Sequence record: OM386658.1
DNA length: 64,000 nt
Source of the DNA: Escherichia phage vB_EcoM_ESCO32
Reading direction: 5' to 3' (one strand)
Shown here: positions 7,189 through 9,152 of the stretch, piece by piece
Position numbering within the stretch: the stretch's first letter is position 1
Layout: each line of letters opens with the position of its first letter
Notes under the pieces: model-generated
Told to the model about the DNA's origin: nothing
Seen by the model: only the letters and a program-made list of their open reading frames with translations
The model's database searches: none
Made by a program: the position numbers and the translations under genes

Positions 7189-7941
7189 ATGGGAAATAAA
7201 ACCGCAAAGGCTCGTCGTCAATCAGCAGCCAATGATGACAAACGTGCCAGTCGTTATGCGGCTAAAGCAGTAGGAAATGATGATTACCGTCTTGATGAAT
7301 TTACCCCTGTTGGGAATCAAGAAGCTATTGTAAGAAGCATGGTTTGGAATGATTTAACCATTGTTAACGCCCCAGCAGGAACAGGAAAAACGACAACAGC
7401 ACTATGGAAAGCATTGCAAATGCTTAAAGCTGGTGATTTCAGAAAGTTGATTTTCCTTAAAAACCCGACAGAAGTAGGTGATGACCAGATTGGTTTCTTA
7501 TCTGGAGATAAAACTGATAAACTAGCAGCACACTACGAATCAACTAAACGAATTTTCCAACAGTTTATGACTGCAAATAAATTGGAAAACGATATTGCAA
7601 GTGGCAAAATTGAACTTAATATTCCAAACTATGCACTAGGTGCTACGTGGGATAACAGCATTATTCTTATTGATGAAGTTCAACTTATGTCACCAAACAC
7701 AGTAAAACTTCTTCTTGAGCGAGCAGGTCTTAATACACGAATTGTCATTATGGGCGATGTTAATCAAACATATGCAATTAAACGAAGAGCTAACGGGTTA
7801 GGTGATTTGTTAGATCGTGTTGTTCCTATTAACGAAGAAGGAGAAAGGGAAGCTATTGTAGATTTTATTGGTTATGTTGAAATGACAACTGCTGATAACC
7901 AACGTTCCCGTTTGTCTCAGTTCATCACGGAAGTATATTAA
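7189..7941 (+). CDS. phoH: PhoH-like ATPase
   Basis: 250 aa; Walker A GTGKTT and Walker B ILIDEVQ, overall PhoH-like. Confidence 0.85.
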   Translation: MGNKTAKARRQSAANDDKRASRYAAKAVGNDDYRLDEFTPVGNQEAIVRSMVWNDLTIVNAPAGTGKTTTALWKALQMLKAGDFRKLIFLKNPTEVGDDQIGFLSGDKTDKLAAHYESTKRIFQQFMTANKLENDIASGKIELNIPNYALGATWDNSIILIDEVQLMSPNTVKLLLERAGLNTRIVIMGDVNQTYAIKRRANGLGDLLDRVVPINEEGEREAIVDFIGYVEMTTADNQRSRLSQFITEVY

Positions 7942-7977
7942 TAATTACAAGGCAAGGATGCCTGTTATGGAGGTTAA

Positions 7978-8472
7978 ATGACGCTAATTGAGATTGATCG
8001 CAATGGTATTGATGAATGCTATCAAGCTGGCTTAGTTAAGCCGAATGAGTTTAGACAGATTTATATTGACAAGATTGAAAAAGAGATATCTCTTCGTTTA
8101 GAGAACATGACAACTTTGCAAAAAGTTCAGATGTTTTTTAGTTGGTTAAAAGGCGAGGATTGGCTAACTAAATATTACCAGGAATTATCTGATAGTCAAG
8201 AAGGCTTGTTTGAGTGTATAATAAATATAGCTGGGTCTAATTCAGAATTACTCCTGATTGATGAAGAAGATTCTAAACTTCTTTTTCTTAGCAGTATCTT
8301 TCACAAGAAATCTATGTTAGTAAGAAATTGCAGTGATTTACTAAATCATCCACTAACAAGAACTAATAAAATTCTTGTGGATAAAGAAACACTAAGAGCT
8401 ATTGATTACCTCCGTAAATATGTAAGCGGTGGTAAAGCAGTCCTTAAAACACTACAGGAGGAAGTACAATGA
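7978..8472 (+). CDS. hypothetical protein
   Basis: Track ORF; GGAGG SD. Confidence 0.6.
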   Translation: MTLIEIDRNGIDECYQAGLVKPNEFRQIYIDKIEKEISLRLENMTTLQKVQMFFSWLKGEDWLTKYYQELSDSQEGLFECIINIAGSNSELLLIDEEDSKLLFLSSIFHKKSMLVRNCSDLLNHPLTRTNKILVDKETLRAIDYLRKYVSGGKAVLKTLQEEVQ

Positions 8473-9122
8473 CAACAATTATTGCAACACATAACAAAAT
8501 TCTATCTGATGGTAAAGTAACAGTAGGTAATCGAGTAGACACTTTAAATTTCAAGAAAGTGCGTAAAATTGGGGATTACCTTGTTGGTGGTGCAGGACGT
8601 CTGTCTTCTATCCTGACTTTCTTTTCTTGGTTCGAACAAAACTTACAGTGCCAGGCAGCACAAGAGACAATCCCAGGTTTGGTGATCCAGTCAGATCCTG
8701 ATAAAGAAGATGAAGAGTTTGTGGCATTAGTTGTTCACCCAGACGGTAAAATTTATATGCACGAGGGTAACAATCCAACGCGAGCATATCCTTTAACTGA
8801 AGATTATTATGCTGTTGGTAGTGGGGCAGATTTTGCTTTAGCAGCTTTAGACGCTGGGGCAACCCCAGAAGAAGCGATGGAAGTTGCAAAACTGCGAGAT
8901 GCTTTTTCAGGCGGTGAAACTTTTATCGAAGAGATCGAAGAACAACTGGAGTTAACAGCGGAAGATATTCTGAACTTCAGCAAGGAGCAACTAATTAGTA
9001 TGCTGTTGACTGGTGATCCTGATAGTGATGAAGCTGAAAGTATTTTAGCAGAAATGAAAGAATCACAAGAAAAAGTATTGACAGTCTCTGAAAAACTTGA
9101 TAAAGTGTCCTCTGATAATTAA
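8469..9122 (+). CDS. HslV / proteasome beta-like Ntn-hydrolase peptidase with acidic C-terminal extension
   Basis: 217 aa; MTTII N-terminus (Thr directly after Met), KKVRKI, GGAGRLSSILTFFSWFEQNL and YAVGSGADFALAALDAG align with HslV TTIV...KKVRRL...GFAGGTADAFTLFELFE...IAIGSGGPYAQAAA; about 70 extra acidic C-terminal residues. Confidence 0.6.
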   Translation: MTTIIATHNKILSDGKVTVGNRVDTLNFKKVRKIGDYLVGGAGRLSSILTFFSWFEQNLQCQAAQETIPGLVIQSDPDKEDEEFVALVVHPDGKIYMHEGNNPTRAYPLTEDYYAVGSGADFALAALDAGATPEEAMEVAKLRDAFSGGETFIEEIEEQLELTAEDILNFSKEQLISMLLTGDPDSDEAESILAEMKESQEKVLTVSEKLDKVSSDN

Positions 9123-9130
9123 TCTAGTAT

Positions 9131-9152
9131 AAACCCCCGCAAGGGGGTTATT
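9131..9152 (+). terminator. rho-independent terminator
   Basis: CCCCC-GCAA-GGGGG hairpin followed by TTATT. Confidence 0.55.

What the first reader, a model, noticed from the sequence alone, without database searches (positions are those of the whole stretch)
8469..9122. Phage-encoded HslV / proteasome-beta-like peptidase with long acidic tail
The product keeps the N-terminal Thr right after Met, the KKVRK lysine region and the GSG loop of HslV-type Ntn hydrolases, but has a shortened core and an about 70-residue acidic C-terminal extension. No HslU-like ATPase is adjacent. A stand-alone HslV-like protease in a T4-type phage could reprogram host proteolysis or process phage proteins.
Basis: partly seen in the sequence, partly recalled or inferred. 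Interest (0 to 1): 0.6.

Follow-up and report, generated by a model that had tools for sequence, protein, structure and literature searches.

The report
Phage HslV-like threonine peptidase, already annotated
The gene really does encode a compact, probably active relative of the bacterial HslV/proteasome protease with an acidic tail, but it lies in a phi92-like (not T4-like) phage, public records already label it as such, and nobody has tested what it does.

Summary
The ORF at 8469-9122 (+), 217 aa, is real and belongs to the proteasome-beta/HslV Ntn-hydrolase superfamily: PHROG 1040 'peptidase HslV family' E 2.4e-62, Pfam Proteasome just above its cut-off, PDB HslV E 2e-7 (5.6e-12 with a family profile), and an AlphaFold model (pLDDT 83) whose best Foldseek match is HslV. 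Thr2, Asp14, Lys30, Gly43 and Gly117-Ser118-Gly119 align with HslV Thr1/Asp17/Lys33/Gly48/GSG and are nearly invariant in 227 relatives. It is not a true HslV: 34.5 bits against a 137-bit NCBIfam cut-off, the second apical helix (H2) is missing, and no HslU occurs in the window or in at least 102 of the 106 Escherichia phage records with the gene. The compact core matches the 'PPH' group of Fuchs et al. 2021, plus a 62-residue tail (27% Asp/Glu, no Arg) made of a semi-conserved helix motif and a free-evolving acidic end. The window is a phi92-like Justusliebigvirus, not T4-type; the gene is phi92 gp058, annotated 'putative 20S proteasome' or 'peptidase HslV family'. Phage VEcB carries a natural deletion of its catalytic N-terminus, so it is dispensable. 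Function is untested. Verdict: correct but already known; modest interest.

The parts
8469..9122 (+). CDS of the 217-aa HslV-like (PPH-type) N-terminal-threonine peptidase, equivalent to phi92 gp058
   Evidence: ORF; PHROG 1040 E 2.4e-62; Pfam PF00227 24.4 bits against a 22.4-bit cut-off; PDB HslV E 2.3e-7; annotated 'peptidase HslV family / putative 20S proteasome' in NC_023693
8456..8461 (+). AGGAGG ribosome-binding site, 7 nt upstream of the ATG. The ATG overlaps the TGA of the upstream ORF (ATGA), which suggests translational coupling.
   Evidence: read directly from the sequence; the phi92 record annotates an RBS at the same place
8469..8933 (+). Catalytic core, residues 1-155: beta-sandwich with H1 (45-67), H3 (120-128) and H4 (133-143); last core strand 151-155
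   Evidence: AlphaFold2 model, pLDDT 83; Foldseek top hits are HslV, E 2e-10, target TM 0.64-0.68; profile aligns positions 2-155 to T. maritima HslV 1-170
8472..8474 (+). Codon of Thr2, the predicted N-terminal nucleophile once Met1 is removed (aligns with HslV Thr1)
   Evidence: alignment with E. coli HslV; Thr in 215 of 217 non-gapped relatives
8508..8510 (+). Codon of Asp14 (aligns with HslV/proteasome Asp17)
   Evidence: Asp in 219 of 221 relatives
8556..8558 (+). Codon of Lys30 (aligns with HslV/proteasome Lys33), inside FKKVRKIG
   Evidence: Lys in 222 of 223 relatives
8586..8597 (+). GGAG loop, residues 40-43; Gly43 aligns with HslV Gly48 (oxyanion-hole region)
   Evidence: Gly43 in all 224 non-gapped relatives
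8670..8720 (+). Residues 68-84: an acidic loop where HslV has the second apical helix H2; HslV residues 82-97 have no counterpart
   Evidence: no helix in the model between 67 and 85; alignment gaps; Fuchs et al. give loss of H2 as the hallmark of PPH/RPC
8817..8825 (+). Gly117-Ser118-Gly119 loop (aligns with HslV Gly123-Ser124-Gly125)
   Evidence: G 227/227, S or T 225/227, G 226/227
8934..9023 (+). Proximal tail, residues 156-185: acidic linker plus a semi-conserved amphipathic helix motif (ELTxE....SKEQLISMLLTG)
   Evidence: model helices 164-168 and 172-181, pLDDT 69-79; the motif is in 115 of 149 relatives with tails of 20 aa or more, including Vibrio and Aeromonas phage proteins; mean identity 37% against 68% for the core
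9024..9119 (+). Distal tail, residues 186-217: acidic, no Arg, low-confidence helix, sequence not conserved
   Evidence: pLDDT 52-75; mean identity 11% among relatives; composition
7978..8472 (+). Upstream, translationally coupled ORF (phi92 gp059, 164 aa, PHROG 14834, unknown function). It is a candidate partner; there is no evidence of interaction.
   Evidence: homologs at 30-38% identity lie directly upstream, or one small ORF away, of the HslV-like gene in three divergent metagenomic relatives; all-alpha model, pLDDT 93, no informative fold match
7189..7941 (+). PhoH-like P-loop NTPase, a syntenic neighbour in every relative examined. It is context only and is not an HslU/AAA+ unfoldase.
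   Evidence: Pfam PhoH E 1.4e-35; synteny in phAPEC8-like, Vibrio and Aeromonas phages and metagenomic contigs

Best explanation
The gene encodes a phage-specific, stand-alone member of the proteasome/HslV Ntn-hydrolase superfamily. Its core is the compact 'PPH-type' described by Fuchs et al. 2021 (no helix H2), and it carries a C-terminal extension.

Shown here: it is co-oriented and translationally coupled with gp059, in a block of early or auxiliary genes (Nrd, glutaredoxin, lysozyme, PhoH, DNA methylase). It has no propeptide. All catalytic positions are conserved.

Inferred: host methionine aminopeptidase removes Met1, as it does for E. coli HslV, which has the same Met/Val-Thr-Thr start. 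This exposes Thr2 as the nucleophile, supported by Lys30, Asp14, the Gly43 oxyanion loop and the GSG loop, so the protein works as a threonine peptidase. By analogy with its relatives it probably forms rings with the tails pointing outward. It probably acts without the canonical HslU unfoldase, because the phage encodes none and one of the two HslU-facing apical helices is gone.

Speculative: the semi-conserved proximal tail helix is a docking element for a partner or substrate. The free-evolving acidic distal tail is a flexible linker; longer relatives use the equivalent stretch to carry an extra, variable C-terminal domain. The physiological substrates (host or phage proteins) are unknown, and the gene is an accessory gene, not an essential one.
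For: Homology and fold: PHROG 1040 E 2.4e-62; Pfam PF00227 above its gathering score; PDB HslV E 2.3e-7 with the single sequence and 5.6e-12 with the profile over the full core; AlphaFold pLDDT 83 with HslV as the top Foldseek hits, E 2e-10.

Catalytic residues: they align with E. coli HslV T1/D17/K33/G48/G123-S124-G125 and are nearly invariant in 227 relatives. That argues for selection on catalysis.

PPH-type core: there is no helix between residues 67 and 85, and HslV 82-97 is deleted. Relatives of 138-156 aa share the same core and end right after it. Fuchs et al. define PPH as about 140 aa, lacking H2 and phage-borne.

No HslU: none in the window. HslU-like sequences occur in only 4 Escherichia phage records, against 106 that carry this gene.

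Not a true HslV: 34.5 bits against a 137-bit cut-off, while the E. coli control scores 302.

Tail anatomy.

Accessory status: phage VEcB carries an in-frame 1122-bp deletion that removes residues 1-62.

Phage restriction: only one hit, on a 425-bp contig, in one genome each of 185,579 bacterial and archaeal species.
Against: No activity, oligomeric state or substrate has been measured for any member; no experimental paper was found. Pfam support is marginal (24.4 against 22.4 bits), and some family members fall below the cut-off. E. coli HslV alone is a poor peptidase and needs HslU for allosteric activation (PMC6429459), so a partner-less homolog may be weakly active or may need an unidentified activator. 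Loss of H2 could prevent ring assembly; Fuchs et al. themselves note that some homologs may not form rings. Membership in PPH was judged only from the published description, not against the reference sequence.
Confidence: 0.6

Rival explanations
1. HslU hijack or decoy. The phage protein docks onto the host's HslU hexamer. It then either forms a hybrid ATP-dependent protease with altered specificity, or it titrates HslU away from host HslV.
For: The closest solved relatives are HslV proteins. Two H1-helix positions that line the HslU C-tail pocket stay hydrophobic: HslV F54 aligns with L49 and F57 with F52, mostly L and F across the family. The named hosts are gamma-proteobacteria (E. coli, Klebsiella, Vibrio, Aeromonas, Shewanella), which as a group encode HslUV (general knowledge). 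The phage has no unfoldase of its own.
Against: H2, one of the two apical helices on the HslU-facing side, is missing, and HslV 82-97 has no counterpart. HslV pocket residue Q114 falls next to an 11-residue insertion. HslV Lys28, which as I recall anchors the HslU C-terminal carboxylate, aligns with a variable position in this family (Ser, Gln, Asp, Thr, Asn or a gap). The protein scores far below the HslV equivalog cut-off.
Confidence: 0.15
2. The same fold but different chemistry. The protein would be a specific amidase, transpeptidase or ligase acting on one defined target, as connectase is within the same superfamily, and not a general peptidase.
For: Fuchs et al. stress that divergent proteasome homologs can have non-degradative functions, with connectase as the example, and may adopt non-ring quaternary structures. 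The core is strongly remodelled. The tail and the variable C-terminal domains of relatives look like targeting modules.
Against: The full Thr/Asp/Lys/Gly/GSG set typical of the proteolytic members is retained. There is no positive evidence for any alternative substrate.
Confidence: 0.12
3. A catalytically irrelevant scaffold or pseudo-enzyme, whose acidic tail is the functional part, for example as a DNA mimic or a binder of basic host proteins.
For: The tail is strongly acidic with no Arg. The gene is dispensable in VEcB. In VEcB the tail and the C-terminal core are kept, fused in frame to the PhoH N-terminus.
Against: The catalytic residues are nearly invariant across 227 relatives, while the distal tail is the least conserved part (11% identity), and 64 relatives have no tail at all.
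Confidence: 0.06
4. A morphogenetic (prohead or virion-maturation) protease.
For: It is a phage-encoded protease; there is no other specific evidence.
Against: The gene lies among nucleotide-metabolism and auxiliary genes, not among structural genes. VEcB lacks its catalytic N-terminus and is still a propagated isolate. A 2026 structural study of the whole phi92 virion contains none of the words protease, proteasome, gp58 or gp058.
Confidence: 0.03

Closest known systems
HslV (ClpQ), the peptidase of the bacterial HslUV ATP-dependent protease
   Same: It is the best-scoring solved relative by both sequence and fold. It shares the Met-Thr-Thr start without a propeptide, and the Thr1/Asp17/Lys33/Gly48/GSG positions.
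   Different: The protein reaches only 34.5 bits against the 137-bit NCBIfam equivalog cut-off and about 29% identity. It lacks helix H2, has a shorter N-terminal hairpin and H3-H4 loop, an 11-residue insertion and a 62-residue tail. It has no cognate HslU.
[quoted passage not shown]
   Same: It is phage-borne, belongs to group I (HslV/BPH-like), has a compact core without H2 and keeps the catalytic triad. Relatives of 138-156 aa with the same core are found at E 1e-19 to 1e-27.
   Different: PPH is described as about 140 residues without extensions, whereas this protein has 217 with a tail. Clustering with the PPH reference sequence (WP_042125023.1) could not be tested here.
[quoted passage not shown]
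   Same: A PPH-like core lacking H2, plus a C-terminal extension of unknown structure.
   Different: RPC is listed only for Proteobacteria, not for phages. This subfamily is essentially absent from bacterial genomes.
BPH and Anbu, bacterial proteasome homologs with no known ATPase partner
   Same: They are stand-alone Ntn-threonine proteasome homologs with unknown physiological substrates. BPH appears among the Foldseek hits (5ovs/5ovt, E 5e-9).
   Different: They are more distant in sequence: neither is among the 60 best of 74 profile hits. Both are larger subunits that keep H2, and both are bacterial rather than viral.
20S proteasome beta subunits
   Same: The same fold and catalytic residues, with profile hits to beta5 at E 2e-6.
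   Different: They have propeptides, work together with alpha rings and carry C-terminal S12/H5 elements. They are much more distant.

Membership tests
Proteasome/HslV superfamily (Pfam PF00227, Ntn-hydrolase T1 peptidases) | Significant profile match above the curated threshold | tested here: met
   PF00227 24.4 bits against a gathering score of 22.4, E 2.5e-5, which is marginal; it is reinforced by PHROG 1040 E 2.4e-62 and by the profile against PDB HslV, E 5.6e-12
Proteasome/HslV superfamily (Pfam PF00227, Ntn-hydrolase T1 peptidases) | N-terminal Thr nucleophile plus Asp17 and Lys33, the oxyanion Gly and the GSG loop | tested here: met
   T2, D14, K30, G43 and G117-S118-G119 align with the HslV residues and are 97-100% conserved in 227 relatives
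Proteasome/HslV superfamily (Pfam PF00227, Ntn-hydrolase T1 peptidases) | Alpha-beta-beta-alpha sandwich fold | tested here: met
   AlphaFold pLDDT 83; 924 PDB matches at E<=0.001, led by HslV, BPH and proteasome beta. The triad geometry was not measurable because no coordinates are accessible.
Bona fide HslV (partner of HslU) | Score above the NCBIfam HslV equivalog cut-off | tested here: not met
   NF003964 34.5 bits against 137; TIGR03692 32.2 against 157.75; the E. coli HslV control scores 302 and 288
Bona fide HslV (partner of HslU) | A cognate hslU gene, normally in the same operon | tested here: not met
   No HslU-like sequence in the window at E<=10. Only 4 Escherichia phage records have any HslU-like hit, against 106 with this gene. 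The neighbours are PhoH-like and unknown ORFs.
Bona fide HslV (partner of HslU) | Both apical helices (H1 and H2) and the inter-subunit pocket for the HslU C-terminus | tested here: not met
   H2 is absent. The pocket is only partly kept: F54 aligns with L49 and F57 with F52, while HslV 82-97 is deleted and Q114 lies next to an insertion.
Bona fide HslV (partner of HslU) | Dodecamer of two hexameric rings | not testable with these tools
   No multimer prediction or experiment is available
PPH (Fuchs et al. 2021) | Group I core lacking helix H2 | tested here: met
PPH (Fuchs et al. 2021) | Encoded by tailed phages (Caudovirales) or by prophage regions | tested here: met
   166 phage records; essentially absent from bacterial genomes
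PPH (Fuchs et al. 2021) | About 140 residues with no extension | tested here: not met
   217 aa: a core of about 155 plus a 62-aa tail
PPH (Fuchs et al. 2021) | Clusters with the PPH reference set (for example WP_042125023.1) | not testable with these tools
   The reference sequence cannot be fetched; the paper's supplement held nothing relevant; the compact relatives found here are unnamed metagenome singletons
RPC (Fuchs et al. 2021) | PPH-like core with a C-terminal extension or domain | tested here: met
RPC (Fuchs et al. 2021) | Found in proteobacterial genomes (not listed for phages) | tested here: not met
   Only one hit, on a 425-bp contig, among 185,579 species genomes; all long contigs examined are phage-like

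The most novel reading that the evidence does not exclude
The PPH-type core, the tail and the translationally coupled all-alpha protein gp059 (perhaps also the neighbouring PhoH-like NTPase) together form a previously unrecognised, HslU-independent phage proteolytic module. The variable tails or C-terminal domains would recruit specific host targets, for example basic DNA-binding or defence proteins, for degradation. That would make it the first functional 'viral proteasome' of bacteria.
Probability: 0.1. Interest if true: 0.7.

Novelty: already known. Interest (0 to 1): 0.28.

Why it matters
No proteasome homolog encoded by a virus of bacteria has a demonstrated activity, assembly state or substrate. 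If this protein is an active, unfoldase-independent threonine peptidase, it would show how the smallest proteasome-like core works without helix H2. It might also reveal a phage strategy for removing particular host proteins. The natural VEcB deletion and the many near-identical E. coli phages (the BASEL collection includes PaulScherrer) make this an easy system for experiments. As a sequence finding it adds nothing to existing annotation.

Tried and rejected

2. Are the Vibrio and Aeromonas upstream ORFs remote homologs of gp059? This is not supported: BLASTP finds nothing and the profile gives E 5.7 or worse.

3. Is PhoH a functional ATPase partner? Only synteny within one broad phage lineage supports it. 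PhoH is a helicase-like P-loop NTPase, not an AAA+ unfoldase. The idea remains speculation.

4. Identity of the extra C-terminal domains in longer relatives: Pfam finds nothing.

5. Linking the compact relatives to the named PPH set: the cluster look-up returned unnamed metagenome singletons and the supplement search found nothing.

6. Defence or anti-defence models: PADLOC gives no hit for the peptidase, gp059 or gp057.

7. The genome scan with the diverse alignment A4 failed because it had no conserved stretch to search with. The scan with A1 gave a single trivial hit.

8. The afdb50 fold library was unavailable.

9. Literature searches for experimental work on phage HslV-like proteins found only annotation mentions.
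Full report
**1.
An ORF runs from ATG 8469 to stop 9122 on the + strand and encodes 217 aa starting MTTIIATHNKILSDGK. An AGGAGG site lies 7 nt upstream of the ATG. The ATG overlaps the TGA of the preceding 164-aa ORF (ATGA), which suggests translational coupling.

The similarity is not chance:
- PHROG 1040 'peptidase HslV family', E 2.4e-62 over residues 1-212.
- Pfam Proteasome PF00227, 24.4 bits against a cut-off of 22.4.
- phmmer against PDB sequences gives 13 HslV entries at E 2.3e-7 to 3e-3, followed by proteasome beta5.
- A 27-sequence family profile raises the best HslV hit to 5.6e-12, aligned over the whole core (positions 2-155 against T. maritima HslV 1-170).

**2. Where the window comes from.**
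The region is 99% identical to Escherichia phage outra and 98.8% identical to phage phi92. These belong to the genus Justusliebigvirus, subfamily Stephanstirmvirinae, so this is not a T4-type phage.

The gene is phi92 gp058. Other records call it 'HslV family peptidase', 'putative proteasome component' or 'ATP-dependent protease'. tblastn finds it in 166 phage records: phi92-like at 95% identity or more, phAPEC8-like and Klebsiella phages at 70-79%, and Vibrio, Aeromonas and Shewanella phages at 32-40%.

**3. Fold and active site.**
An AlphaFold2 model built on the family alignment has mean pLDDT 83. It shows the N-terminal strands, a long helix H1 (45-67), a loop at 68-84, further strands, helices 120-128 and 133-143, and a last strand at 151-155. 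Foldseek against the PDB is led by HslV: S. aureus 6kui at E 2.2e-10, with target TM scores of 0.64-0.68 for several HslVs. BPH and 20S beta subunits follow.

In a MAFFT alignment with E. coli HslV (sequence), the catalytic residues pair as follows:

| E. coli HslV | This protein |
|---|---|
| T1 | T2 |
| D17 | D14 |
| K33 | K30 |
| G45, G48 | G40, G43 |
| G123-S124-G125 | G117-S118-G119 |

Across 227 relatives these positions are almost invariant:
- Thr2: 215 of 217
- Asp14: 219 of 221
- Lys30: 222 of 223
- Gly43: 224 of 224
- Gly117: 227 of 227
- Ser or Thr118: 225 of 227
- Gly119: 226 of 227

That level of conservation argues for selection on catalysis.

**4. It is not a true HslV.**
- Against NCBI's HslV equivalog models the protein scores 34.5 and 32.2 bits, where the cut-offs are 137 and 157.75. 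E. coli HslV scores 302 and 288 as a control.
- HslV residues 9-12, 82-97 and 139-147 have no counterpart. There is an 11-residue insertion at 99-109. The model has no second helix after H1.
- H2 is one of the two helices on the HslU-facing side. Of the pocket residues cited in PMC6429459 (F54, F57, Q114, A79/K80), only the two H1 positions are clearly kept, as L49 and F52.
- tblastn with E. coli HslU finds nothing in the window even at E<=10. Against all phage records, HslU-like sequences occur mainly in jumbo Erwinia and Salmonella phages and in contaminated records. Only 4 Escherichia records have one, whereas 106 Escherichia records carry this gene.

**5. The closest described kind.**
Fuchs, Alva and Lupas (2021, PMC8665760) surveyed proteasome homologs. 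[quoted passage not shown] It has about 140 residues, occurs in tailed phages and lacks helix H2. [quoted passage not shown]

An exhaustive profile search of 1.84 billion representative proteins gave 8016 hits at E<=1e-3, of which 57 are at E<=1e-30. Many proteins of 138-156 aa appear at 1e-19 to 1e-27. These compact proteins share exactly the core deletions seen here and stop right after the last core strand.

The window protein is therefore best described as a PPH-type core with an extension. I could not compare it with the paper's reference sequences, so formal assignment to PPH or RPC remains open. A scan of one genome for each of 185,579 bacterial and archaeal species found a single hit, on a 425-bp contig. 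This tailed subfamily therefore seems confined to virulent phages.

**6. The tail.**
Residues 156-217 number 62 (not about 70). They contain 17 Asp/Glu, 5 Lys and no Arg, for a net charge of -12. The tail has two parts.
- The proximal part (156-185) has model helices at 164-168 and 172-181 (pLDDT 69-79) and the motif ELTxE....SKEQLISMLLTG. That motif recurs in 115 of the 149 relatives with tails of 20 aa or more, including the Vibrio and Aeromonas phage proteins.
- The distal part (186-217) has low confidence and is essentially unconserved.

Mean identity to relatives is 68% for the core, 37% for the proximal tail and 11% for the distal tail. Of the 227 relatives, 64 have no tail. Another 45 have tails of 100 aa or more that carry further domains Pfam does not recognise. 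The general layout is a protease core, an acidic linker with a short conserved helix, and an optional variable domain. That suggests, but does not show, a recruiting or docking role. Fuchs et al. likewise note that C-termini should point away from the rings and could be interaction sites.

**7. Genomic context.**
The order Nrd, glutaredoxin, lysozyme, PhoH-like, small ORF(s), HslV-like gene is kept in several places:
- a phAPEC8-like phage (ESCO13);
- Vibrio phage qdvp001;
- Aeromonas phage 2L372D;
- three metagenomic contigs whose peptidase is only 43-53% identical to this one.

This is an early or auxiliary gene block, not a structural one. gp059 (7978-8472) has homologs at 30-38% identity just upstream of the peptidase gene (directly, or one small ORF away) in those three contigs. 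No homolog is detectable in the Vibrio or Aeromonas phages. Its model is confident (pLDDT 93) and all-alpha, with no informative structural match. It is the most plausible partner, but nothing more can be said. The PhoH-like protein is a helicase-like P-loop NTPase, not an AAA+ unfoldase. PADLOC has no model matching the peptidase or its small neighbours.

**8. Dispensability.**
Phage VEcB (MT932211) lacks window positions 7533-8654. This is an in-frame 1122-bp deletion with 8 bp shared at the junction. It fuses PhoH residues 1-114 to peptidase residues 63-217, and so removes half of PhoH, all of gp059, and Thr2, Asp14 and Lys30 of the peptidase. If the deposited assembly is correct, the block is not needed for plaque formation. 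That rules out an essential morphogenetic protease and fits an accessory role in interaction with the host.

**9. Mechanism and verdict.**
The best-supported account is a threonine peptidase that matures by simple Met removal and acts without the canonical HslU. Maturation by Met removal is an inference from methionine aminopeptidase specificity and from HslV's identical start. The tail would serve partner or substrate contact.

The rivals are use of host HslU, a different Ntn chemistry, a non-catalytic scaffold and a morphogenetic protease, in decreasing order of likelihood.

No experimental study of any phage member was found. However, the gene is already annotated and its kind has already been described, so novelty is low. 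Its remaining interest is as an untested but experimentally tractable system.

Noticed in passing
window 7533-8654 (compared with locus L006, phage VEcB MT932211): Phage VEcB has an in-frame 1122-bp deletion with 8 bp shared at the junction. It fuses the PhoH N-terminus (aa 1-114) to residues 63-217 of the HslV-like protein and removes gp059 entirely. This is a natural triple knock-out of the PhoH, gp059 and peptidase block.
   Followed up: yes
[not shown]
   Followed up: yes
L004 3432-3983 and 4001-4885 (Aeromonas phage 2L372D): Two different HslV-family genes lie side by side: a 183-aa form starting Met-Thr-Cys and a 294-aa tailed form. This raises the possibility of hetero-oligomeric phage proteasome-like particles in some phages. 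The window has only one such gene.
   Followed up: partly
proteins P0061, P0069, P0073, P0081, P0082, P0085, P0098, P0124; L003 4001-4831: Longer relatives (246-379 aa) carry extra C-terminal domains that Pfam does not recognise. Some are Cys-rich. Many end in a helix-loop-helix-like motif (L..L...c..lgI.......k.tL..kI...I) that resembles SAP/HeH-type motifs by eye; this was not tested.
   Followed up: partly
window 9134-9147: A GC-rich stem-loop (CCCCC-GCAA-GGGGG) lies in the 40-nt gap between the peptidase gene and the next ORF (gp057). The scan scored it as terminator-like only on the minus strand. Its role (terminator, RNA-stability or processing element) is unknown.
   Followed up: no
L010 (JAPMLR010000072.1, 425 bp, Lysobacteraceae bacterium JHOS43 assembly): This is the only hit in 185,579 species genomes. 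It is a 425-bp contig encoding residues 68-188 at 75% identity, most likely phage carry-over in a draft assembly and not a bacterial gene.
   Followed up: no
window 7189-7941 (+): The PhoH-like NTPase stays within one to six small ORFs upstream of the HslV-like gene in every relative examined, always preceded by a lysozyme gene. Whether this reflects function or only conserved genome order is unknown.
   Followed up: partly
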